DNA of 64,000 bases, taken from positions 124,001-188,000 of the forward strand of contig OZ025804.1 of NCBI GenBank assembly GCA_964019425.1, given 5' to 3'. The translations under genes were made by a program, and so were the position numbers. The notes under the pieces were generated by a model, which searched no databases, had not been told where the DNA came from, and worked only from the letters and a program-made list of their open reading frames with translations. This DNA comes from Flectonema sp. DT1601. Taxonomy: Eukaryota. Shown one piece after another: positions 1 through 38,435 of the stretch. Numbering within the stretch: position 1 is the stretch's first letter; each line of letters begins with the position of its first letter.

Positions 1-1103
1 TCCGAGTGTTCTGCCGGAGGTGGTGAGCTCAAAGCTGAGATCGCCTGCGATATGCGGCCCTCTCTTACCAGTTCGGTTGCCCTCCGATTTCTTGATTTCT
101 GGACGGCGCCACTTTTGTCTGGATCTGGGTACTCCCGGTCGCATTTGCCGCCCATAGTACCATGAAGTTGCCCTTTGACCATGCCGTCAGGTCCTCGATC
201 GCGCCGTTCAAGGCTGATTCAGTCATCCGTCCTCCCTTTCTTCGTACTCTTCTCAGGGTACAGACTGGTAGCATTAGTAGCAGCCGCCAGGCTTGGTCGT
301 TATTTAAGTCTGCTACCAGATCCGACGTCAGCTTCAGCGCTTTCGCGAAGTGGTGCAGTAGGGGTACTGGAATCACCTTCAGTAGGGGCCTCCTCCGAGT
401 GGCGATGGTTTCGAGGTCCGGCAGGTCTTGTGTCGATAGAGCCATCTCCTTGAACCCCTTGTAGGCGTCATCTAATTCCTTGGATTCTAGCTTTTCTCTG
501 CAGGATTGGTGCATGGGTTGTGTCATTCCAATTACCAATCGGCAGACTGGGCACTCCCGTAGGTTGAGTCTGGAGAGGTGACTGTGTGTCAGGGGGTTCC
601 CACTGAAAGCGCGCTCTTGCGCGTGCTGGAGCAGCTCCGTCCAAGACGGGAACGCCGCCTTGTGTCTGTCGCATTCCGGTTGTGGACACGTAAGTGAGAC
701 ATCCTTTGGGCTGGGCGGATGTGGTAGCAAGGGACCAGCTGTTTCCGCGGTATTCATTCTGCCTGTCTGCAGGATCAGGAGAGGCCTTGCTTTATTGAGG
801 AGGGATGTTAGCTTTTCCGGTGCCACTACGACGGGGTCGTAATGGCTCCCCTGCAAGGTGAGTGCGATCACGTGGCCCGGGGTTGTCCCGTTCCTTCCTG
901 ACACCACTAGTTCTTCCTTTCCAACGAACAGTAGGAAGCTGCACTTCAGATCGTCTGCCATGGCTTGTAAGGCCAGTGCGTCACCCCACGCCTTGTCTGT
1001 TCTGAGCGTATTGAGGTATGCTTCCATCTCTGTGTCTGATGAAAAGCATTGGTTGAACACTTCTTGGCTCTTCTCAATAAAGTCAGCCGTCCTCTGTCGT
1101 AGC
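1..1103 (-). mobile_element. Fragment of a CRE/SLACS-like non-LTR retrotransposon ORF (C-terminal OTU-like domain, C2H2-type zinc fingers, pre-RT region); N-terminally truncated, frameshifted near 70-130, continues past the window start
   Basis: The frame of ORF 65-1060 extends upstream to about 1102 as LRQRTADFIEKSQEVF..EAYLNTLRTDKAWGDALALQAMAD..LTLQGSHYDPV (OTU WG and HY motifs, no N-terminal catalytic Cys). It also has CPQPEC..H, CPVC..H..C and AWRLLLMLPVCTLRR..GG. Bases below about 90 read RRATELVREGRISQAISALSS in another frame, resembling CRE-clade pre-RT sequence. Confidence 0.6.
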
Positions 1104-10595: not shown

Positions 10596-12457
10596 GATTG
10601 GCCAGTGTTGTTCCTGTTGGTCGCACTTGTAGTAATCTTGTTCATACCAAGATTGTTCTCAATCCTCTTGACAGCTTCTATTAGCGAAGTGATGGCTGTC
10701 GCCATGTTGTTGTTGGCTGCTTCGTTCTTTTTCGTAGTTTGCACCAGGGTTTCTACAATCCCGGTTATCTGTGCCATGCCTTCATCAAGTCGAACTTGCA
10801 TGTCCTTCACTTCTTTCTGGAGACGTTCGATTGTCTCGTTCGTTTTCTCTCTCAGGCTGTTCACGTTGTTTTCTACAACCTGAACTTCGGCCGTTGGTTT
10901 CTTCGTTGTCGGGAGTGACCTCTTGACCGCGGCTGCGTACGATGTTCTAGCCTCACGGTACTTAACTACAACGGGTTTCGCTGTTTCCTTCGCCTTCACT
11001 TCTGTTTCTAACTTTTCAATGAGGATGACAATATCTCCACACTGTACAAACCTTGATTCTGGTTTCTTGTCCAGTGCGATGATAAAGTCACCTCTGTCCA
11101 TCCTTATAAACTTTGACTTCAGTCCTATCTCCAATAGGATATTCCGAAGTCTGTTACCCCAGCTGTAAGGTGCTCCACTGAGACGGTGAAGCCCTTCGCC
11201 AAACACTGTGGATGCATATTTACCAGCACCCTTTCTTACTTTATCAACATCCTTTTGATAAACCACCCTCAATCCAATCTTGCCATGTATGATGGTGAGT
11301 CCATGGCAGAGGTCATGTTGGGCTTTAAGTATGCCAACTGCCTCTTCGTTTGTTGTCTTGCGGTCCAGCCACACTGTGGTGTACTGAGTGGGTGTCTGTC
11401 CCGCCACTGATTTAATCCGGAAATAAACATTTCCTATTCCGGAGTTTCTTAAAAGTGCGACAGCTGCTTCCACATCGTTTGGGAGAACAGTGAGTTCTAC
11501 GAAGTCTTTGCCAACGTATCTGTAGGAGCGTTGATCGACTCTTCCGTGTTGTGCCACAACAGCTTTGACAATTGCTGTTACAGCTGCCGGGTTTTGGACC
11601 TGTGACTTGGTCAACTCTTTAGTTGTTATCCACGCAATTAATTCGTGGGTCACCGGTGCGTTGATCTTCTTGGCGATCGTTAGAGTTGGCCGGTGGATCG
11701 TGCCAGACAGAGCAACGAACCACCAGCTTCTTATTCTTAATTGCCCATCGAATTGGACAGGTGTCTGTATCTGACTGCAGTCAGTTGCGTGTTGTAGGGC
11801 ACGTTTTGGAGGTGGTCGTGTGAACACCATCGTCAGTTGCTTCGTTTTACTGGCCTTTTCGAAGTAGTCTTCGTCCAGGCTTCTTGCTTGTTGAGATAAT
11901 GCAAGTATAATGCCGTTGGTCTTGCTGTTGAGGGTCTCAGTTGGCTGGAGTATTTTGCATTTAAAATGCTCCTTGTTTAGCTTCGGTGGTGGTCCATTCA
12001 TAATCACCGTCGATCTTCTTTGTGCCTCTTTGATTTGAGGGCTTGATTGGGGTGCCTCATTTGACGGAGGGCTTTGATCTGCTTTTAAAAATTTACTTCC
12101 ATGTGCCTCGATATTTTGAGGGCTTATTTGAATTGCCTCTTTGTTTTGAGGGCTTGTCTTTGTTTGAGTTGCCTCCTTGTTTTGAGGGCTTGCTTGAAAT
12201 GCTGCGGGAGGTCCCACTGCGGTCACCTCTACTGCGATTCCTTCCGGTACTTCTGGAGAGTCCATCTCCATTTCTTCCTCTGATACTTCTGGTGATTCTC
12301 CCATCACCACGTCCTCGTCTTCTCGCTGTTGGGTCTCTTCTTCTTCCCGGATCTCATTTCTGGCTTGTTCCCTCATCATCTTCGCCTCTTTCCTTTCTCT
12401 TTCTCTCCTTTCTGCAGCCCTTCTATCTTGCGGACGCATTGCTTTCTTTCCAGCCAT
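10592..12457 (-). CDS. ORF1 (gag-like) of A2, 621 aa; charged N-terminus, SPQ repeats, C-terminal coiled-coil-like region
   Basis: Lies upstream of ORF2 with a 4-nt ATGA stop/start overlap; near-identical in A3. Confidence 0.88.
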   Translation of the reverse strand: MAGKKAMRPQDRRAAERRERERKEAKMMREQARNEIREEEETQQREDEDVVMGESPEVSEEEMEMDSPEVPEGIAVEVTAVGPPAAFQASPQNKEATQTKTSPQNKEAIQISPQNIEAHGSKFLKADQSPPSNEAPQSSPQIKEAQRRSTVIMNGPPPKLNKEHFKCKILQPTETLNSKTNGIILALSQQARSLDEDYFEKASKTKQLTMVFTRPPPKRALQHATDCSQIQTPVQFDGQLRIRSWWFVALSGTIHRPTLTIAKKINAPVTHELIAWITTKELTKSQVQNPAAVTAIVKAVVAQHGRVDQRSYRYVGKDFVELTVLPNDVEAAVALLRNSGIGNVYFRIKSVAGQTPTQYTTVWLDRKTTNEEAVGILKAQHDLCHGLTIIHGKIGLRVVYQKDVDKVRKGAGKYASTVFGEGLHRLSGAPYSWGNRLRNILLEIGLKSKFIRMDRGDFIIALDKKPESRFVQCGDIVILIEKLETEVKAKETAKPVVVKYREARTSYAAAVKRSLPTTKKPTAEVQVVENNVNSLREKTNETIERLQKEVKDMQVRLDEGMAQITGIVETLVQTTKKNEAANNNMATAITSLIEAVKRIENNLGMNKITTSATNRNNTGQS

Positions 12458-12464
12458 TTTATTT

Positions 12465-12519
12465 CAATAAAGTACAGAAACAATAAAGTACAGAAACTGT
12501 AGCTTTAGAATCGTTGGTT
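12465..12519 (-). other. Full 39-nt spliced-leader exon (12481-12519) followed by a 16-nt relict SL (nt 24-39; 12465-12480), 7 nt upstream of the ORF1 ATG
   Basis: Minus strand reads AACCAACGATTCTAAAGCTACAGTTTCTGTACTTTATTG TTTCTGTACTTTATTG AAATAAA ATG. The 39-nt length and CAGTTTCTGTACTTTATTG end match euglenozoan SL exons. No GT donor follows. Confidence 0.9.
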
Positions 12520-12615
12520 CTAGTATTTTTTTTTTTTTGTGTGCACCACGACCCGTGAGTCTGTGATGCTGATTGCGCTGTTAGGCGCGGTTGTTCTTTT
12601 TCTTTCTTTCTTTCT

Positions 12616-12743
12616 CACATGGCATCGTTTTTCGATCGCGATCCCCGTGATTTCCTTTTCCTCTTCTCTTTCCCACGCCGCGATCTCTCCAACAATCCGC
12701 AGCATTCAGCGTAGTCACACTTCACGCACATGACTACCCGCGG
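12616..12743. other. About 128-bp foreign insertion in the (GAAA)n tract of the A3 3' UTR
   Basis: Absent from A1 and A2 at the same position; flanked on both sides by TCTTTCT. Confidence 0.75.
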
Positions 12744-12925
12744 TCTTTCTTACTTTCTTTGTTTTGGGGGTTGGGGGTGGGAACCCCGTAGGCTTCGTAT
12801 CTCCTTTCTTTGTTTTGATAACTTAAAACTAATACTACAGAATAAATTGTCCACTTGGACGACTTCAGATGTGTTGCAATGATGCCTTCAATGTTGATAT
12901 TCGAAATGTCGATGTTTTAATAATA

Positions 12926-15900
12926 CTACCGTCCTAATAGTTGTGCCAGTCTGTCTAAGGTTGTGACAAAACCAGTCATCTGCTGTTGATTCGCAGGTAA
13001 GTAGCAGTCCTCCAGTTGGCATGCTTCCTCTCCCTTGTCATTCATCATGTGACTGATGTATTTTTCCCTCAAGGTTTCTATACACCAATGTTCGCATATA
13101 AATAATACATGATGTGCTGTCGCCTTTCCAAGTTTACAGAAAAAGCACAGCTCGTTCAGTCCTTTGATTATCAGAGATCTGCAATGTCCCACTCTAAAGC
13201 GTGACATCAGTACTTCCTCTGGTCGTGTTAGAGCTTCGATGTACGGAGGGTGTCTTACCTCTCCTGGTCCGATCCAGTTCTCCCTTTTTCTCCGCTTGTG
13301 AAACGTCATCAATGTTCCCATGTCAAGTTGAGTGGGCAGTTGTTTAATAATAACATCTTCGTGAGGTGGATCTTCCTTCAGGCCTGCAGCGAATTTCGCC
13401 AGTTGGTCCGCTACTTCGTTGTACCGCACGTTTCTGTGTGCCGGTACATACTGCATGTTGACTTGGATTCCCTTCTTCTCCAGTTTCATTGCCAACTTCC
13501 AGATCTTTTTGTTCATTGGGGACCTTTGTTTATATGGCCCTTGTTCCAATGCCTGCATGACTGACATCGAATCAGTCAACAGGTGCGTCGTTGTTGTTAG
13601 AGATTCATGTTCATCCTCCGCCACCTGAACTAAATTTTCCAACGCCAGTTTTACTGCAATCTGCTCGGTCCTATAAGAGGAACCCGCTACTGGTATTTTA
13701 TATCCAAGTAGACGCATCTTGCTTTCTTTTACTATGACCACAGCGGCAGCCGAGTCTGTCATGTAAGTCTCGGATTTGTGTCTTATCGACCCGTCAGTGT
13801 AGACTTTCATCTCGTGAGTTGGTAGTTCAGCTTCTCGCTGTTCAGCCTCTTCCTTGTTACTTGAATATGTGAATCTCATCGCACTAGTACTTTTCCATGG
13901 AGGGACAGTGTAGTGTTCTGGGTTCACTTCCAGGTTGGTAATGCTCCGGTAATTGTCAAGGCCAGGGACACCAGAGACATAGTCTATCCAGACATTCCAT
14001 CCCCATTTCGATTTTTGGTATAATTCTGAACTCCCTGTTCTCGTCAGCTTGCGAGTCGGTAGGAACGGACTCAATTTGAAACGTTCGTAAGTTCTACACA
14101 TCTTATACTGGATGTGTTCCTTTAGTCTTGGCGTATCGGCTTCTTTGTAAAGTCTCTGTAGTTTGGTGCTCCGCAGACATCCAGTTACCAGCCTCACTGC
14201 CCTGTTTACCAGTAATTCCAGTTGTTCGAAGCACTCTTTTGGTAGCATCCAAGCAAAGCTTTCAACACCATAAAGCACCCTTGCTAACACCACCGTCACC
14301 AGTATACTGATGAGTGTCCTCTTTCTACAGCCTATCCTGGTGAGTCTAACCAACAAGCCTAGACCCTTGGAAGCAGCTGTCATCATCTTTTGAATTTGCG
14401 ACTTAAAGGTTAACTTCTCGTCATAATGTACGCCTAGATACCGCACGGTATTCGTCTTGTGAACTTTTCGTCCAACCGCATAGGCAAATCCGTGTAGTCC
14501 GGGTCCCACTCTTTGCAGCATCTTATCTATTTCTGCCTTGTTGTGGACTTTCTTCAGTTGTGAGAAGCTGGCACTCATCTTCATTGTTTTCAGTACCGCC
14601 GGTTTATTCGGTAGCTTGACTTTGATCTTATGTTTTGGAACGACGTACAGGTGAGTGATGGCGAATTCTTCTTTTGAAACTACAGTTGTTGAGTTATCAT
14701 CCTTCACAAGGTTACTCATTTGTTCTGCCGTGGCCACCACATATTTAAATGTGTGTTCTTCAGAGTATACTACTACTGGGGACTTGTCATGTGTTCCTCT
14801 TGGCCTCACGTGAATGTATTCCGTCTTGCCAGGGTTCTTATTGATTTTGATGTGTGAGTCAAGTGCCCACCTTTCAAATATTTTGACTGCGTTGTTAACC
14901 TTGTTTTCTAAACAGCTGACAGTGCCCGCGGTTATTACTATTCCAACATCATCTGCAAAGACAGTCGGTTCGTACATCTCTAGTTTATCTATCAAATCGT
15001 TTATGAAGATAGAGAATAACTGGGGTCCCAGCACGCTTCCTTGTGGCACTCCTACTCGAATGTTCCGGAATGCTCCCTTCACTCCATTCACCCTTGTTGA
15101 AATCTTCCTGCTAGTCAAGTAGTTTTGAACCCACCGTAGATATTTCGTTGGTGGTCCTATTTTGGACATCTTATTTAGAAGAGTTACCGGTTGAACTGCA
15201 TCGAAGGCTTTTTGTAGGTCGAAGGTGATTAATATCGCTTCTTCTCCCATTGCCTTGGCACTTTTGAGTTTGTCTGTAACTATACAGAGATTTTCAATGG
15301 AATCCCGTCCTCGTTTGTAGGCTGCTTGCCTCGGATTCATTCTGTCTTTCAACAGGTGGTGCATCCGTTCCACGACCATTCTTTCAAAGAGTTTCGAGAC
15401 GGTCGAGGTTAGTGCTATCGGTCTGTACGATAAGACTTGTTTCTTGTCTTTATCAGGTTTCAGTATGGGTATTACCATTCCACTTTTCCAGCACCTGGGT
15501 ACTGCTGATCGTTGCCATGAGAGGTTGAATAGTCTTAGTAGTTGCTCGAGGAAAGCTTTTGGAAGTTGTTTTAACATCGAGTTCCAGATGTGGTCAGGTC
15601 CAGGTGCCTTCTTCTCCTTTGTTTTTGAAATTTGTCGTTCCAGTTCAGGCATTCCAAATTCCACCGAGTTGTCATCAGGTATTCCTTGTAAGGTTGGTTC
15701 ACCGTCTTCGAATTTGAATTGGTCTGCGTATGTTTTGGTGAAGACATCTGCCATCTCCCGCGGGTCGGTTAATTCCTTCTCACCATCGACAATCTTAGTA
15801 ATTGAATGGTCCATCATTCTACCTTCCAGTTGTTTAACTTTTCTAAAGGCCCATCGGTAGTCCATTCCAGTCATGTCGCACTCAATGATCTTCTGTTTGA

Positions 15901-16843
15901 TCATATTGATACCTCTTTCAATTGCTTCTGAGTCTGTCTTATCAGGGTCAGTCTCTGCCATTAAATCTTCCAATTCTGAATCCCTCACAGCGAAGGTACT
16001 ACTTGACTTTTTGTTGTAGCCTGGGATGGCCCTTCTCGCTGCTCTCAGAATCTCGTTGTTGATCCTATTAGCTAGTTTCTGCACATACTTAATTCTTTCT
16101 AATTTGGGCGCTGCCCTTTCCAACAATATTTTATAATAATTCCAATCGGCACAGTGCCACTTCCATTTCCATGTTCCAGAACTCTCTTTTGAATATTCAT
16201 CTGTTTTGATATCTTCGATTGTCAGTTTGAGCGGCAGGTGATCGCTGCCCCATCCCTTCATGAGTTCGATTTGTGCATCCAAAGAAATATCTAATGCAAT
16301 TACATCCGGAGAGGCTGAGCTCTGTGGTCTTGTGTGTTGTTGAGGTTTGTTTAGAATTTGAATTGCTGCTTCTAGTGACCAATCGTAGAAGCTGTTACCA
16401 GTAATGTTCGTATTTCCATTTGACCAAGTTGAATGGTGTCCATTAATGTCACCCGCAATCAATGTGCCGGGCTCTGTTTTAAACTTCCATGTTGTTGCCT
16501 TGATTTCAGGCGGGTGGTAAACATTGTGAATTGTCAATGGCGGATTAGATTGAAGTACTACTGTTAATATCTCAGTTTGGTCATGTGAGATGTCGGGGTG
16601 TTTTAATATTATCTTATTTAAATCATTTCTGACCAGAGTGACGAGTCCTCGATGACCTGACTTGATGGTGCTATCTCGCCTGTGGATTGAATATCCTTCA
16701 ATAGCGAAGTGTTTTTCTTTAGATAACCACGTTTCCTGCAGTAGTACTACTTCAGGCTTTTCTTCTTTCAGTGCCCAGTTCAATCGAAAGTAATTTTCTG
16801 GTTTCAGAACTGAGCGTATGTTATTTGACCAGATCACAATCAT
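12926..16843 (-). CDS. ORF2 of A3 (APE-RT-RNase H-CCHC, 1305 aa)
   Basis: Same motifs as A2 ORF2 and nearly identical sequence. Confidence 0.96.
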   Translation of the reverse strand: MIVIWSNNIRSVLKPENYFRLNWALKEEKPEVVLLQETWLSKEKHFAIEGYSIHRRDSTIKSGHRGLVTLVRNDLNKIILKHPDISHDQTEILTVVLQSNPPLTIHNVYHPPEIKATTWKFKTEPGTLIAGDINGHHSTWSNGNTNITGNSFYDWSLEAAIQILNKPQQHTRPQSSASPDVIALDISLDAQIELMKGWGSDHLPLKLTIEDIKTDEYSKESSGTWKWKWHCADWNYYKILLERAAPKLERIKYVQKLANRINNEILRAARRAIPGYNKKSSSTFAVRDSELEDLMAETDPDKTDSEAIERGINMIKQKIIECDMTGMDYRWAFRKVKQLEGRMMDHSITKIVDGEKELTDPREMADVFTKTYADQFKFEDGEPTLQGIPDDNSVEFGMPELERQISKTKEKKAPGPDHIWNSMLKQLPKAFLEQLLRLFNLSWQRSAVPRCWKSGMVIPILKPDKDKKQVLSYRPIALTSTVSKLFERMVVERMHHLLKDRMNPRQAAYKRGRDSIENLCIVTDKLKSAKAMGEEAILITFDLQKAFDAVQPVTLLNKMSKIGPPTKYLRWVQNYLTSRKISTRVNGVKGAFRNIRVGVPQGSVLGPQLFSIFINDLIDKLEMYEPTVFADDVGIVITAGTVSCLENKVNNAVKIFERWALDSHIKINKNPGKTEYIHVRPRGTHDKSPVVVYSEEHTFKYVVATAEQMSNLVKDDNSTTVVSKEEFAITHLYVVPKHKIKVKLPNKPAVLKTMKMSASFSQLKKVHNKAEIDKMLQRVGPGLHGFAYAVGRKVHKTNTVRYLGVHYDEKLTFKSQIQKMMTAASKGLGLLVRLTRIGCRKRTLISILVTVVLARVLYGVESFAWMLPKECFEQLELLVNRAVRLVTGCLRSTKLQRLYKEADTPRLKEHIQYKMCRTYERFKLSPFLPTRKLTRTGSSELYQKSKWGWNVWIDYVSGVPGLDNYRSITNLEVNPEHYTVPPWKSTSAMRFTYSSNKEEAEQREAELPTHEMKVYTDGSIRHKSETYMTDSAAAVVIVKESKMRLLGYKIPVAGSSYRTEQIAVKLALENLVQVAEDEHESLTTTTHLLTDSMSVMQALEQGPYKQRSPMNKKIWKLAMKLEKKGIQVNMQYVPAHRNVRYNEVADQLAKFAAGLKEDPPHEDVIIKQLPTQLDMGTLMTFHKRRKRENWIGPGEVRHPPYIEALTRPEEVLMSRFRVGHCRSLIIKGLNELCFFCKLGKATAHHVLFICEHWCIETLREKYISHMMNDKGEEACQLEDCYLPANQQQMTGFVTTLDRLAQLLGR

Positions 16844-18702
16844 GATTGGCCAGTGTTGTTCCTATTGGTCGCACTTGTAGTAATCTTGTTCATACCAAGA
16901 TTGTTCTCAATCCTCTTGACAGCTTCTATCAACGAAGTGATGGCTGTCGCCATGTTGTTGTTGGCTGCTTCGTTCTTTTTCGTAGTTTGCACCAGGGTTT
17001 CTACAATCCCGGTTATCTGTGCCATGCCTTCATCAAGTCGAACTTGCATGTCCTTCACTTCTTTCTGGAGACGTTCGATAGTCTCGTTCGTTTTCTCTCT
17101 CAGGCTGTTGACGTTGTTTTCTACAACCTGAACTTCGGCCGTTGGTTTCTTCGTTGTCGGGAGTGACCTCTTGACCGCTGCTGCGTACGATGTTCTAGCC
17201 TCACGGTACTTAACTACAACAGGTTTCGCTGTTTCCTTCGCCTTCACTTCTGTTTCTAACTTTTCAATGAGGATGACAATATCACCACACTGTACAAACC
17301 TTGATTCTGGTTTCTTGTCCAGTGCGATGATAAAGTCACCTCTGTCCATCCTTATAAACTTTGACTTCAGTCCTATCTCCAATAGGATATTCCGAAGTCT
17401 GTTTCCCCAGCTGTAAGGTGCTCCACTGAGACGGTGGAGCCCTTCGCCAAACACTGTGGATGCATATTTACCAGCACCCTTTCTGACTTTATCAACATCC
17501 TTTTGATAAACCACCCTCAATCCAATCTTGCCATGTATGATGGTGAGTCCATGGCAGAGGTCATGTTGGGCTTTAAGTATGCCAACTGCCTCTTCGTTCG
17601 TTGTCTTGCGGTCCAGCCACACTGTAGTGTACTGAGTGGGTGTCTGTCCCGCCACTGATTTGATCCGGAAATAAACATTTCCTATTCCGGAGTTTCTTAA
17701 TAATGCAACAGCTGCATCCACGTCGTTTGGGAGAACAGTGAGTTCTACGTAGTCTTTGCCAACGTATCTGTAGGAGCGTTGATCGACTCTTCCGTGTTGT
17801 GCCACAACAGCTTTGACAATTGCTGTTACAGCTGCCGGGTTTTGGACTTGTGACTTGGTCAACTCTTTAGTTGTTATCCACGCAATTAATTCGTGGGTCA
17901 CCGGTGCGTTGATCTTCTTAGCTATTGTTAGAGTTGGGCGGTGGATCGTGCCAGACAAAGCAACGAACCACCAGCTTCTTATTCTTAATTGTCCATCAAA
18001 CTGGACCGGCGTTTGTATCTGACTGCAGTCAGTTGCGTGTTGTAGGGCACGTTTTGGAGGTGGTCGTGTGAACACCGTCGTCAGTTGCTTCGTTTTGCTG
18101 GCCTTTTCGAAGTAGTCTTCGTCCAGGCTTCTTGCTTGTTGAGATAATGCAAGTATAATGCCGTTGGTCTTGCTGTTGAGGGTCTCAGTTGGCTGGAGTA
18201 TTTTGCATTTAAAATGCTCCTTGTTGAGTTTCGGTGGTGGCCCATCCATAATCACCGTTGATCTTCTTTGTGCCTCTTTGATTTGAGGGCTTGCTTGGGG
18301 TGCCTCATTTGACGGAGGGCTTTGTTTCGTTTTTAATACACTTCCTTGTGCCTCTATGTTTTGAGGGCTTATTTGAATTGCCTCCTTGTTTTGAGGGCTT
18401 GTCTTAGTTTGAGTTGCCTCCTTGTTTTGAGGGCTTGCTTGAAATGCTGCGGGAGGTCCTACTACGGTCACTTCTACTGCTATTCCTTCCGGTACTTCTG
18501 GAGAGTCCATCTCCATTTCTTCCTCTGATACTTCTGGTGATTCTCCCATCACCACGTCCTCGTCTTCTCGCTGTTGGGTCTCTTCTTCTTCCCGGATCTC
18601 ATTTCTGGCTTGTTCCCTCATCATCTTCGCCTCTTTCCTTTCTCTTTCTCTCCTTTCTGCAGCCCTTCTATCTTGCGGACGCATTGCTTTCTTTCCAGCC
18701 AT
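16840..18702 (-). CDS. ORF1 of A3 (620 aa)
   Basis: Near-identical to A2 ORF1; ATGA overlap with ORF2. Confidence 0.88.
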   Translation of the reverse strand: MAGKKAMRPQDRRAAERRERERKEAKMMREQARNEIREEEETQQREDEDVVMGESPEVSEEEMEMDSPEVPEGIAVEVTVVGPPAAFQASPQNKEATQTKTSPQNKEAIQISPQNIEAQGSVLKTKQSPPSNEAPQASPQIKEAQRRSTVIMDGPPPKLNKEHFKCKILQPTETLNSKTNGIILALSQQARSLDEDYFEKASKTKQLTTVFTRPPPKRALQHATDCSQIQTPVQFDGQLRIRSWWFVALSGTIHRPTLTIAKKINAPVTHELIAWITTKELTKSQVQNPAAVTAIVKAVVAQHGRVDQRSYRYVGKDYVELTVLPNDVDAAVALLRNSGIGNVYFRIKSVAGQTPTQYTTVWLDRKTTNEEAVGILKAQHDLCHGLTIIHGKIGLRVVYQKDVDKVRKGAGKYASTVFGEGLHRLSGAPYSWGNRLRNILLEIGLKSKFIRMDRGDFIIALDKKPESRFVQCGDIVILIEKLETEVKAKETAKPVVVKYREARTSYAAAVKRSLPTTKKPTAEVQVVENNVNSLREKTNETIERLQKEVKDMQVRLDEGMAQITGIVETLVQTTKKNEAANNNMATAITSLIEAVKRIENNLGMNKITTSATNRNNTGQS

Positions 18703-18748
18703 TTTAATTTTTTTTTTTTTTTACGTACGTACGTTAAGACAATAAAGT

Positions 18749-20642
18749 ACAGTAATTATCTTGCATCCTTTGGGCACCTGTTTGGAAGAAAGGAAACATG
18801 AGAAACAAATCACTCGGTGATATCAATAAACTAAACAATGGTCAACTTGGTGGACTACCCATGCGAGTAGGTCACCGCGTTGGGGTTGTGGTGGGTCCGC
18901 CATGGATGGGCTGGACGCCGCTGCCGGTCCCAGTTCTGTTCGTTGGGTTGCCGGCGATGGAGGGTCGGTGGGTGGGACTTTTTTTTTTTTTTTTTTTAAA
19001 AAGGTGTGGGTGGGTGGGAATTTAAAATTCGTGAAAAAGGTATGCGCGAAACGGGGTTCGAAATCTGATAAATGGGTGTGAATTAAGAATTGGTATTAAG
19101 AAACTAATAATCATAATGTTGGATTTACATTATGGGAACGCATCGAAAAATTCGATGCTTGGTGAAACGGTGCTTTGGGATGCTGCAAATTACTGAAATA
19201 TATTTAACAGTAATTATCTTGCATCCTTTGGGCACCTGTTTGGAAGAAAGGAAACATGAGAAACAAATCACTCGGTGATATCAATAAACTAAACAATGGT
19301 CAACTTGGTGGACTACCCATGCGAGTAGGTCACCGCGTTGGGGTTGTGGTGGGTCCGCCATGGATGGGCTGGACGCCGCTGCCGGTCCCAGTTCTGTTCG
19401 TTGGGTTGCCGGCTCCACCACCCCGCCGCGAGTTAAAGAATTCCCCCAGCGCAAGTTCTACCTTCTGCCTGGTAGCCGAAGATATTGCTTCCCTAGATGG
19501 AATATCTGCTGGGTTGTACTTCGTACTCACCCATTTTAAAGAAAAAGAACACTTAAAAAACAAAATTCTCTCCACTGCTTTTATAACAAAAAAGTTCAAA
19601 TCATGCGATCTTACACACATTCTCTTCCTGAATGCTCCACATACCGAGGTATTGTCTACCCAGATGTCCAGGTGGTCAGCATGGCTGATTCCATCCAGAG
19701 TCCTGGCCAGAGCATCAGCTTCAAGAATGTTAATGTGGCGACTCTCACCATATGGCCATGCCCCTCCCAGGATTTCCAATTCTCCAGATTCCCAAACAAT
19801 AACCCCGCCCCACCCTTGGAGCGAGGCATCAACAAATACCTCAGCTTTCTTTTTCTTTGTCCCATTCAACTTAATGATCCTTTTCTTCTGGACCGACTTA
19901 CACCAATTGAAAAACTCTCTTTTCACAGAGGGGGGAATAACCACTTCCTGTTCAACACGTAAAGAGCCCTTGTTGAGCTTGTTTGTTACTCTTCTCAGAA
20001 ACTTTAAAGCAAACCAGTAACGCCCAGGTGGAACACCTGAAATTGCACTTGCATGTAGAAGTCTCCCCCCTAATGACTCGATACTCGAGGCAGTCATACG
20101 ATTTAAATCACACTTGAAAATACCTCTTCTAATCTTGGCACCTAAGCCCACTTCCTTTGCATTATGTAAAAAAGAAACACCAAGAAAATCATAAGATCCA
20201 CCACAGTTAACTGTATCCTGTGGTTTCCAAGAAATGTTGCATTCAGATGCCAGTTTATCCAATCTTTCTGTTGCACTGTGCACCTTCTCCCTTCCACCGA
20301 AATACCTGATATTGTCGATCCACCAATGGATCCCAACATCCTTCTCCGCATACCTGTCCTTGACAAAAAGCGGGTCACCTGCTACCACAGCAGCCACGGT
20401 GTTCATTATTTCCGGTGCACAAACATGCCCCATGGGCAGTCTGGTCAAGGCATTTAAAATTCGTGAAAAAGGTATGCGCGAAACGGGGTTCGAAATCTGA
20501 TAAATGGGTGTGAATTAAGAATTGGTATTAAGAAACTAATAATCATAATGTTGGATTTACATTATGGGAACGCATCGAAAAATTCGATGCTTGGTGAAAC
20601 GGTGCTTTGGGATGCTGCAAATTACTGAAATATATTTAACAG
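18749..20642 (-). mobile_element. Internally deleted tyrosine-recombinase-type (DIRS order; TATE/VIPER/Ngaro-like) retroelement with split direct repeats
   Basis: A 191-bp repeat occurs at 20452-20642 and 19020-19210, and a 207-bp repeat at 19207-19413 and 18749-18955. On the minus strand this gives A1-coding-B1-A2-B2. Both ends and the B1/A2 junction share CTGT. Encodes an RT/RNase H remnant. Confidence 0.82.
19330..20448 (-). pseudogene. C-terminal RT plus RNase H fragment of the YR-type element
   Basis: RT-like LPMG, WWIDNI and DFLG; RNase H-like VFVDAS..GWG, HINILEA, WVDNT and NPADIPSR. The RT N-terminus, gag and recombinase are missing. Confidence 0.8.
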
Positions 20643-20896
20643 AAACTGTAGCTTTAGAATCGTTTTTTTTTTTTTTTTTTTTTTTTGTGTGCACAGCAGG
20701 TTCCTTCGACCTGCTTTGCTGTTTGCGCTGTTAGGCGCGGTTGTTCTTTCTTTCTTCTGTAAACTTTCTTTTTGTGGGGATTGGGGATGGGATGGGGGGT
20801 TCCCGTAGGCTTCGTATCTTCTTTGTTTTCTTTGTTTATCAATTACTAAAGAGTTCAGTTTACTTCCTCATTTGGTCTAAGAACCGCATCTTTAAA

Positions 20897-23800
20897 TTAT
20901 GGATTTCCAGGTCTTCCGAGCATTTCAGCTATTTGGTCCAGTACCACTACAAAGTTGGACATGCTGCGTTGATTCTCCTTTAAGAAGCAGTCCTCTACTT
21001 TACTCACTACTTCACCAGTTTCGGTATTAATCATGCTGTGTATGTACAATGATCTCATCTTTTGGATACACCAGTGGTTGCACTTGAAAAGCACATGATG
21101 CGGTGTTGCAGTATCTCCATGACAGAAGATGCACTGTTCGTTTATTCCTTTTAGTTTAAGAGATCTACAGTGTCCAACTCTGAAGCGGGACATTAGGACT
21201 TCTTGTGGTCTCGTCAGTTCTTCTATAAAAGGTGGATGCCTCTGTTCGCCGGCTCCAATCCACTCCTCTCGTTTTCTTCTCTTGTGAAAAGTCATAAGGG
21301 TTCCCATATCCAGTCTAGTAACTAAACTCTCGAGTACCACACTGTCATCTGGAGGTTTCTTTATCGTACCTGCAGCGTGTTTTGCCACCTTGTCTGCTAT
21401 TTCATTATACAGCACATCCATATGTGCCGGGACATACTGCATGTTAATATTAACACCTCTGTGTTCCAGTTTCAGTGCTAACTTCCAGATTGATGCATTT
21501 GTAGCAGATTTCTGTTCTTCAGGTCCTCGCTCAAGTGCCTGTATTAGCGACATTGAGTCAGTTAGAATATGCGTCTTTGTTGTGGGAAGTATTCCTTCGG
21601 ATGCCTTTTTGTTTTTCAGGAGTATTCTCATCGCTTGTTCCACGGCTATCTGTTCAGTTCTGTAGGAGCTTCCTGCTACAGGTATTCTGAATCCGGTCAT
21701 GCTAACTTCCTTACCCTTCACTATTATCACAGATGCTCCTGACTTGGTCATGTACGTCTTCGTCCTATGTCTAATAGACCCATCTGTGTACACCTTCACG
21801 TCTTCAATTGGTAGACCGGCTTCTTTGTCTTTTGCCTCTTCTTTTCCAAAACAGTAATTGAATTCCATTGCATTAGTTACCTTCCATGATCGCATCTTAT
21901 AGTGCTTTGGATTGATTTCCGAGTGATACGAGCTTCTGTGTTTGTCGAGTCCCGGGATCCCCGACACATATTCATCCCAAACTATGCGACCCCAAGCTGT
22001 TTTTGGTGGGTAGTTTAGGCCTCCCTCCGTCATTGTGAGGCTACAAGCTGGTAGGTGGGGACTTAATTTGAATTCTTCATAGGCCCTACACATCTTGTAG
22101 CGTATGTGTTCTTGTAATTTCGGCATATCTGCTTCATGGTACAAGTTCCTCAGTCTGGTGCTTGGCAGACATCCCGTTACCTGTCTAGCGGCTCTGTTTA
22201 TTAAGATGTTTAGCCTCTCAAGACTGACGTCACCTCTCTTTGGCAGCAGCCAGGCAAAACTTTCAACCCCATAGAGCACTCTCGCCATTACAACAGTCAC
22301 CAGCACACAGATGAGGGTTCTCTTCCTGCATCCCATCCTGGAGAGTCTTAGCAGGAGCCCCAGTCCTCTGGAGGCTGCCGTCATCATCTTTCGCATGTGA
22401 GTTTTGAAGTCGAGGTTTTTGTCGTACAGAACTCCCAAGTATCTTACTACATCCGTTTCATGTAGTTTGTCCACCACCGAAAATGCAAAAGCCTTGAGAC
22501 CAGATCCAGTTCCTTGTAGCATCCTCAGGATGTCTCCTCTGGTGCGAACCTTTTGCAGTTGTGAGCATTTACTAGGTTCCATCTGCATGCCTACCAATAC
22601 AGTTTCTGTCGTCGGTAATTTTCGTTTTATTTTATGCTGCGGAACCACATAGAAATGTGTTATCGCCTTTTTAGAATTGCCTATAGTAGTTGAGTCCTGA
22701 TTATTTAGCATTTTTCGGATGGCCTCTGCTGTTGTGACGACATATTTGAAGGTGTGCCCCTCCGGGTATAGCACTTGTGGAGACTTATTTTCTTGGCTAT
22801 CGGTATCCGGCCTCACATGTATGAACTCTGTTTTACCCGGGCTCTTGTTTATACAAATGTGGGATGCTGCGGCCCAATTTGAGAAGATGCGTACTGCTGT
22901 GTTAGCTTTGTCCTCCAGTCCTTTAACATCTGGAGATGTCATCACGAGCCCAACATCATCTGCAAAGACTGCTGGTTTATACCTATTCAATTCTCGTATA
23001 AGGCTTTCGATGTATATCGAGAATAGCTGTGGTCCTAGGATACTTCCTTGGGGTACTCCAACTTGTATGTGTTTGAATGTTCCCTTTTCGCCGTTTACTC
23101 TGGTTGTGATCTTTCTCCCAGTCAAATAGCTCTGGACCCATCTTGTGTATTTCGCCGGTATCCCAACTTCAGACATCCTCTTCAGTAGAATTTTCGGTTG
23201 GACGGCATCGAATGCCTTCTGCAGGTCAAACGTCATTAACATCGATTCCCTACCTCGGTACCTTCCATCTAGTAGTCTCTCTGTTATCATGCAGAGATTT
23301 TCTACGGCACTGCGCCCTCTTTTATATGCGGCTTGCCGCGCACTCATTCTGTCTCCAAGTAAATGATGCATCCTTTCTGCCATCATCTTCTCAAACAACT
23401 TGCTTATTGCTGACGTCAATGTTATTGGTCGGTAAGAGAGTACACGTTTCTTGTCTTTTCCCGATTTTAAGATTGGAACTACTATCCCATACTTCCAAGA
23501 TCTCGGAACCGCCGACTTTTCCCAAGTCATGTTGAACAGCCGTAAGAGTTGCACCATAAATGTTTCTGGGAGTTTCTTTAACATAGTGTTCCACACCCCA
23601 TCCGGCCCGGGTGCTTTCTTGTCTTTTAATTTCTTGAGCTGTCGCTTTAGTTCTCTCATTGTGAATTCTTCATTGCCTTCGTCCCCTGGTTTGTTCTCAA
23701 ATACCAAGGAGGGCACTTCGTCGTCTACCAGATTGAATTGTGTCGCGTATGCCGTGGTAAATATGTCTGCCATTTCTTTTGGATCAGTTGTTGTACTGCC

Positions 23801-38362: not shown

Positions 38363-38369
38363 GCCGCTT

Positions 38370-38418
<49 letters not shown>

Positions 38419-38435
38419 AATCCCAGGTGGTGGCA
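38363..38435 (+). tRNA. tRNA-Phe (GAA)
   Basis: 73 nt: D-arm GCTC/GAGC, anticodon arm TCAGA-CTGAAGA-TCTGA, T-arm CCTGG-TTCAATC-CCAGG, A and B boxes. The acceptor stem has G-U pairs and a U7-U66 mismatch. Confidence 0.93.

What the first reader, a model, noticed from the sequence alone, without database searches (positions are those of the whole stretch)
18740..20664. Tyrosine-recombinase-type retroelement integrated inside the spliced-leader exon
Seen: the SL of A3 is split into nt 5-30 (20639-20664) and nt 27-39 (18740-18752) with CTGT on both sides. The 1.9-kb insert has A1-RT/RH-B1-A2-B2 split direct repeats, and its B1/A2 junction also contains CTGT. Known: PAT/Ngaro/VIPER-type elements have this repeat layout and integrate circular intermediates at a short shared core. 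The SL-targeting elements I know (SLACS, CZAR, CRE, NeSL) are non-LTR. Inference: this may be an SL-specific YR retroelement that normally targets SL gene arrays and here hit a retro-copied SL. One insertion cannot prove specificity.
Basis: partly seen in the sequence, partly recalled or inferred. Interest (0 to 1): 0.8.

Follow-up and report, generated by a model that had tools for sequence, protein, structure and literature searches.

The report
VIPER retrotransposon splitting a spliced leader
A broken copy of a VIPER-type jumping gene cleanly splits a genomic copy of the short leader that this protist, probably a diplonemid, puts on its mRNAs; it likely entered by recombination at a shared four-base core, but whether the family seeks out leaders is untested.

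Summary
A retro-copied 39-nt spliced leader (SL) at the head of a LINE is split at CTGT (nt 27-30) by a 1,890-bp insert laid out A1-RT/RNase H fragment-B1-A2-spacer-B2. A1/A2 (191 nt) and B1/B2 (207 nt) are 100% identical. The CTGT at the B1/A2 junction sits in a 10-bp imperfect dyad (8 of 10; 0 of 578 other CTGT sites reach this), the anatomy of a recombinase site. The copy has lost gag, YR and the RT N-terminus. A 1,028-aa family member, identical over the fragment, carries a recombinase-compatible overlapping frame. Motifs and spacer match published VIPER, not TATE. SL specificity is not shown: no flank of any other copy could be reached, the 8 family ORFs lie on 6 contigs, and the SL resembles the element's arms only modestly (48 of 578 sites score as high). 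Yet only 5 of 578 CTGT cores here lie in SL copies, and the sister clade TATE is site-specific. Verdict: a new, recently mobile VIPER member; about 40% that it targets SL, which I found in no paper.

The parts
20639..20664 (-). Spliced leader nt 5-30, left half of the target; follows the poly(A) of the upstream LINE and ends in the CTGT core (left junction)
20452..20642 (-). Repeat A1, 191 nt including the core
   Evidence: identical to A2
19330..20451 (-). C-terminal RT/RNase H fragment, 373 aa, no own N-terminus; equals residues 656-1028 of family member P0113; keeps WIDN and RNase H, lacks the RT motif at P0113 residue 627
19207..19413 (-). Repeat B1, 207 nt, overlapping the ORF end and ending in the core
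19197..19220 (-). B1/A2 junction: CTGT core (19210-19207) inside a 10-bp imperfect inverted repeat; predicted recombinase site of the circular intermediate
   Evidence: 8 of 10 dyad; 0 of 578 other CTGT sites reach 8
19020..19210 (-). Repeat A2, 191 nt
18956..19019 (-). 64-nt spacer between A2 and B2 with a poly(A) run and TCCCACCCACC motifs, like the internal region of SIRE/VIPER
   Evidence: T. cruzi VIPER copy, read by eye
18749..18955 (-). Repeat B2, 207 nt, ending in the core (right junction)
18740..18752 (-). Spliced leader nt 27-39, right half of the target
12521..18739 (-). Host LINE (ORF1 16840-18720; APE-RT-RNase H ORF2 12926-16861) whose retro-copied SL was hit
12465..12519 (-). Intact SL (nt 1-39) plus a relict SL (nt 24-39) heading the sister LINE copy; serves as the empty-site reference

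Best explanation
This is an internally deleted VIPER-clade retrotransposon copy that splits a retro-copied spliced leader exactly at CTGT and likely entered by tyrosine-recombinase exchange at that core, probably as a chance hit of a family that needs little more than the core. Shown: repeat layout, three CTGT cores, exact empty site, dyad at the B1/A2 junction, loss of gag, YR and the RT N-terminus, and near-identical longer family members elsewhere. Inferred: reverse transcription through the split repeats rebuilds a circle whose junction is B-CTGT-A; the family's YR binds the AT-rich arms and exchanges strands with a genomic CTGT, leaving one core at each end and no true target duplication. 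Identical repeats make the event recent. The copy cannot be autonomous; it was either moved in trans or deleted after insertion. The target was the SL at the 5' end of a LINE in a nest of LINEs.
For: Anatomy. Family: 8-member 90% cluster, P0112 and P0113 identical over 371 of 371 residues. YR: the +1 frame of P0113 is compatible with 13 of 13 box I/II residues of a natural relative at the same 94-residue spacing, 1 of 200 shuffles equal, 48 of 100 residues compatible against 18 in the +2 frame; that relative's ORF (L006, gag-YR-RT/RH) scores 0.98 to clusters with 27-32% Phage_integrase members. VIPER: motifs and spacer agree with the VIPER file of PMC6681497, not the TATE file. For a loose target: family ORFs on 6 contig lengths; a sister family on 12 different contig lengths in 12 of 12 rows; SL arms no better than 48 of 578 CTGT sites; PMC5994713 names only CZAR as SL-specific in T. 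cruzi (passages). Core-at-junction model: PMC7192593 (passages, stated for DIRS elements).
Against: Only 5 of 578 CTGT cores in the window lie in SL copies, so a chance hit is about 1% per insertion here and probably less genome-wide. The element lies in the SL's sense. TATE is site-specific. The YR of this family was inferred from protein overlap, not read from DNA; Pfam did not detect the L006 YR and its model was poor (pLDDT 41.6, best match Cre at E 0.04).
Confidence: 0.55

Rival explanations
1. Same element and same recombination, but the family is SL-specific or strongly SL-preferring: its YR recognises the conserved 3' half of the SL exon, inserts into SL RNA genes and dispersed SL retro-copies, and may use the SL promoter and cap for its own RNA.
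For: Exact hit in the conserved SL half, sense orientation; 5 of 578 cores are in SL copies. All four half-sites share A at -7 and -5 (noticed after the fact). TATE targets telomere repeats and CRE-clade elements target SL genes. A sister family clusters on few contigs, as an array-targeting element would (15 of 28 rows listed: 4, 3, 2 and 2 on four contig lengths).
Against: One site only, picked because it was striking. Arm likeness is modest (48 of 578). Family ORFs lie mostly on separate 184-435 kb contigs. No split SL among 5 of 5 metagenome matches, a weak test.
Confidence: 0.38
2. The element first entered an SL RNA gene; the enlarged exon (SL 1-30, element, SL 27-39) was trans-spliced onto the LINE transcript and retro-copied with it as one unit.
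For: The unit begins at SL nt 5 directly after a poly(A); the element is in the SL's sense; these LINE heads are copied from trans-spliced RNA.
Against: It needs a kilobase-long SL exon to be transcribed and spliced (implausible from my own knowledge of SL RNPs; not tested). DNA insertion explains every junction more simply.
Confidence: 0.04
3. Assembly chimera or LINE template switching at 4-base microhomologies.
For: The region is a nest of repeats; no laid contig bridged either outer junction.
Against: It needs both switches at the same CTGT that is also the element's own internal junction, leaving the SL exactly conserved.
Confidence: 0.03

Closest known systems
VIPER and its short form SIRE (order DIRS, VIPER-like; Ribeiro et al. 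2019, PMC6681497)
   Same: A1-ORFs-B1-A2-B2 repeats of similar size (T. cruzi 173 and 219 bp), YR overlapping RT/RH, LTRLPMG and WIDNI motifs, W-x-TASRW / HSIKRG / AKH recombinase motifs, a C-rich spacer between A2 and B2, GAT(A/T)ATT just before the B/A junction (supplement read by eye)
   Different: Host is probably a diplonemid; this copy is internally deleted; the core and both target halves are resolved, and the target is an SL exon, which the passages I read do not report for VIPER
TATE (Leishmania braziliensis and others)
   Same: Same layout; site-specific insertion into a repeated sequence is its precedent
   Different: Inserts in telomeric hexamers; RT and YR motifs differ. Diplonema papillatum ORFs were labelled TATE-like (PMC10161547); whether those are the relatives found here was not checked
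SLACS / CZAR / CRE1 / CRE2 (CRE clade)
   Same: Insert in the SL exon of Euglenozoa
   Different: Non-LTR, restriction-like endonuclease, poly(A) tail, true target duplications; none present here
Ngaro elements of Cafeteria burkhardae (PMC8547959)
   Same: Split direct repeats; some types prefer one class of target (virophages) and ORF1-deleted forms exist
   Different: Preference is for a region, not a base position; different host and lineage

Membership tests
VIPER | Split direct repeats A1 ... B1-A2-B2 | tested here: met
VIPER | YR ORF overlapping the RT/RH ORF | tested here: met
   Family level only, inferred from the +1 frame of P0113, P0112, P0111; deleted in this copy
VIPER | Gag-like ORF1 | not testable with these tools
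   Deleted here; no DNA of full-length family copies reachable. Present in the distant relative L006
VIPER | VIPER-type rather than TATE-type RT and YR motifs | tested here: met
   Compared by eye with parts 1 and 3 of 6 of the VIPER file and part 3 of 4 of the TATE file
VIPER | RT/RH phylogeny inside the VIPER clade | tested here: inconclusive
   Quick tree of 75 rows: P0113 groups with four sister families (SH-aLRT 100) among diplonemid-type rows; no named VIPER, TATE or Ngaro reference was in the tree, only an unnamed T. theileri protein
VIPER | No true target duplication; terminal bases equal the B1/A2 junction core | tested here: met
   absence of TSD stated in PMC12278014
TATE | Insertion in telomeric hexamers | tested here: not met
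   Flanks are SL halves
CRE clade (SLACS/CZAR/CRE) | Non-LTR structure with RLE, poly(A) tail and TSD | tested here: not met
SL-specific element (any kind) | Independent copies at the same SL position | not testable with these tools

The most novel reading that the evidence does not exclude
A VIPER family has evolved a recombinase that reads the conserved 3' half of the spliced-leader exon: an SL-specific tyrosine-recombinase retrotransposon, convergent with the non-LTR SLACS/CRE elements, that places itself behind the SL promoter and cap and also lands in SL retro-copies. Its attP and 39-nt attB are defined to the base, which would make eukaryotic YR-retrotransposon integration testable in vitro.
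Probability: 0.4. Interest if true: 0.72.

Novelty: new member of a known kind. Interest (0 to 1): 0.46.

Why it matters
Even as an ordinary VIPER, the copy is useful: because the target is an invariant known sequence, the empty site, both junctions and the internal junction are fixed to the base, which defines a 4-bp core in a dyad for a group whose integration sites I did not find described. It also points to a young, many-family VIPER population in a probable diplonemid. If SL-specific, it would be a second class of element converging on the SL exon and a defined substrate for testing how YR retrotransposons choose targets, which PMC7192593 (2020) calls experimentally uninvestigated for DIRS-1.

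Tried and rejected
No whole genome is held, so the flank tally could not be run. Sequencing runs: 3 of 5 listed runs held part of the stretch, no RNA holder listed; laying contigs of 5 runs in two calls gave only short depth-2 to 2.8 pieces inside the element, no joints, no loose ends. Related-locus scans: metagenomes 0 of 138 candidates, viral 0 of 25, prokaryote genomes 6 of 40, of which L006 is a VIPER-like element without usable flanks and five are distant. Pattern for an SL broken after nt 30: 5 metagenome matches, all single-base SL variants, none split. Left-junction 18-mer in viral contigs: 10 matches, none longer than 27 nt against the insert, taken as chance. One profile search ran on a wrong length range and found nothing. 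Pfam finds nothing in the window fragment or the L006 YR; PDB sequence search 0 hits; the YR model was low-confidence and its Cre matches are not significant. Rfam found nothing at 12000-21500. An SL-like string near 1100 was rejected: it is coding sequence of an OTU-like ORF. Three rows were dropped before the tree (P0275 short; P0363, L009 no hit), and the careful tree did not finish. Earlier scan findings: none on this genome or family.

Full report
Observation. Reading both strands and searching for SL pieces shows SL nt 5-30 at 20664-20639 and nt 27-39 at 18752-18740 on the minus strand, and an intact SL at 12519-12481 heading a sister LINE that is 98.0% identical. Taking out the insert and one CTGT restores the intact SL over the span compared. 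The insert is 1,890 bp: A1 (191 nt), an RT/RNase H fragment, B1 (207 nt), A2, a 64-nt spacer, B2; both repeat pairs are fully identical. The window holds no other copy and no SL RNA gene.

Host. The SL agrees at 37 of 39 positions with a published euglenozoan SL (PMC3795323, one table passage; that this row is Diplonema is my recollection). The nearest named homologues of the fragment are Diplonema papillatum proteins. The host is therefore probably a diplonemid. The SL copies are retro-copies: they head LINEs, follow poly(A) tails, and one is trailed by a relict of nt 24-39, which begins right after the SL's internal AG.

What the insert is. The fragment has no Pfam hit but 33 homologues among longer proteins and 1,070 in the 50% library. 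The window ORF belongs to an 8-member cluster at 90% identity. P0112 and P0113 match it at 371 of 371 residues, and P0113 is a 1,028-aa RT/RH ORF. The fragment starts at P0113 residue 656, after the RT motif at 627, so this copy makes no working RT, gag or YR. The N-terminal part of P0113 is compatible in its +1 frame with both recombinase boxes of a natural relative: 13 of 13 residues, same 94-residue spacing, 1 of 200 shuffles as good, followed by positions compatible with A-K-H and R-Y. Three of the four closest sister proteins tested gave 13-14 of 15 with 0-1 of 100 shuffles; P0004 gave 12 with 7 of 100. The relative, L006, is a gag-YR-RT/RH element read from DNA; its second ORF scores 0.98 to clusters in which 27-32% of members carry Phage_integrase, while Pfam, PDB and fold searches were blank or weak.

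VIPER, not TATE. I read parts 1-3 of 9 of Ribeiro et al. 2019 (PMC6681497), further passages, two of six parts of its VIPER file and one of four of its TATE file. By eye, T. cruzi and C. fasciculata VIPER share LTRLPMG or close, WIDN, W-x-TASRW, HSIKRG and AKH with this family; TATE has other motifs. T. cruzi VIPER also has TCCCACCCACC between A2 and B2, like the spacer here, and GATTATT before the B/A junction where this element has GATAATT. The Asp-Asn in place of the RT's Asp-Asp is a group trait, 172 of 180 matched proteins (many rows are near-identical). A quick tree puts P0113 with four sister families at support 100 but had no named references; the .fas supplements that hold them could not be read.

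Mechanism. The same CTGT stands at both outer junctions and at the B1/A2 junction. At the latter it is flanked by 10-bp arms that are inverted at 8 of 10 positions; none of 578 other CTGT sites in the window reaches 8. [quoted passage not shown] Identical repeats indicate a recent event (reasoning in PMC6681497). Circle formation, arm binding and trans-mobilisation are inferred.

Is it SL-specific? For: 5 of 578 cores in the window lie in SL copies; the element is in the SL's sense; TATE targets telomere repeats; CRE elements target SL genes (PMC12278014, passages); one sister family clusters on a few contigs. Against: it is a single site chosen for being striking; the SL arms score 10 of 20 against the element's arms, reached by 48 of 578 sites; the 8 family ORFs lie on 6 contig lengths; another sister family lies on 12 different contig lengths; the locus is a nest of LINEs where insertions pile up. 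Shared contig lengths suggest that these families and the window's LINEs are in one assembly; that is an inference from lengths only, and clusters list at most 15 members. With many VIPER families in one genome, a chance hit in some SL copy is not far-fetched; neither is one family being specific. My estimate, from assumed copy numbers and priors rather than data, is about 40% for targeting. Every route to further flanks failed.

Literature. Nine full-text searches gave no paper whose listing or read passages describe a YR retrotransposon in an SL exon or VIPER in diplonemids. The D. papillatum genome paper mentions TATE-like ORFs only (passages and supplement search). A review passage lists SL exons as targets of non-LTR elements only (PMC8869645). 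Subscription journals and Repbase were not searchable, and unread supplements may bear on this.

Verdict. Real, well-formed, a new and recently mobile VIPER member with a base-exact integration site. The SL-specific reading is open and can be settled by one flank tally in the source assembly.

Noticed in passing
window 12519-12465 (-): Full SL followed by a relict SL nt 24-39 that starts right after the SL's internal AG: the LINE seems to have gone through two rounds of trans-splicing and retro-copying, like the relict SLs of dinoflagellate retrogenes (search listing).
   Followed up: partly
window 1104-38300 (-): Head-to-tail nest of at least seven APE-RT(-RNase H) LINE copies of two or three families; the SL-headed family has 91 ORF2 cluster members. 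ACTAG(AA) at 12525 and 6382 may be the target duplication of the middle copy.
   Followed up: partly
window 1-1100 (-): ORF with an OTU-like protease fragment (Pfam E 0.0016, below cut-off) and zinc-finger-like motifs, interrupted by the LINE nest; possibly a CRE/SLACS-like retroelement (resemblance recalled, not tested).
   Followed up: partly
L001 (reverse strand 2460, 2913, 3735), L002, L004, L005, L003: Metagenome contigs carry several DNA-encoded copies of the same SL 5' half, each preceded by a shared AAAAAAATGAAT... motif about 30 nt upstream and followed by ORFs: looks like a virus or mobile element that writes its own SL and promoter in front of each gene.
   Followed up: partly
window 38363-38435 (+): tRNA-Phe beside TTTAGGGTTTT motifs that also stand at the 5' ends of the second LINE family's copies; may be that family's target or interstitial telomere-like sequence.
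   Followed up: no
window 12744-12616 (-): About 130 nt of unrelated sequence sit inside the (AAAG)n tract of the host LINE's 3' UTR.
   Followed up: no
protein cluster of P0004: A sister VIPER family with many full-length ORFs concentrated on few, often small contigs; best candidate for a tandem or array-targeting family.
   Followed up: no
L006, L010, L011: Prokaryote MAG contigs holding eukaryotic-looking YR retrotransposons (L006 VIPER-like; L010 and L011 with inverted terminal repeats), probably binning contamination.
   Followed up: partly
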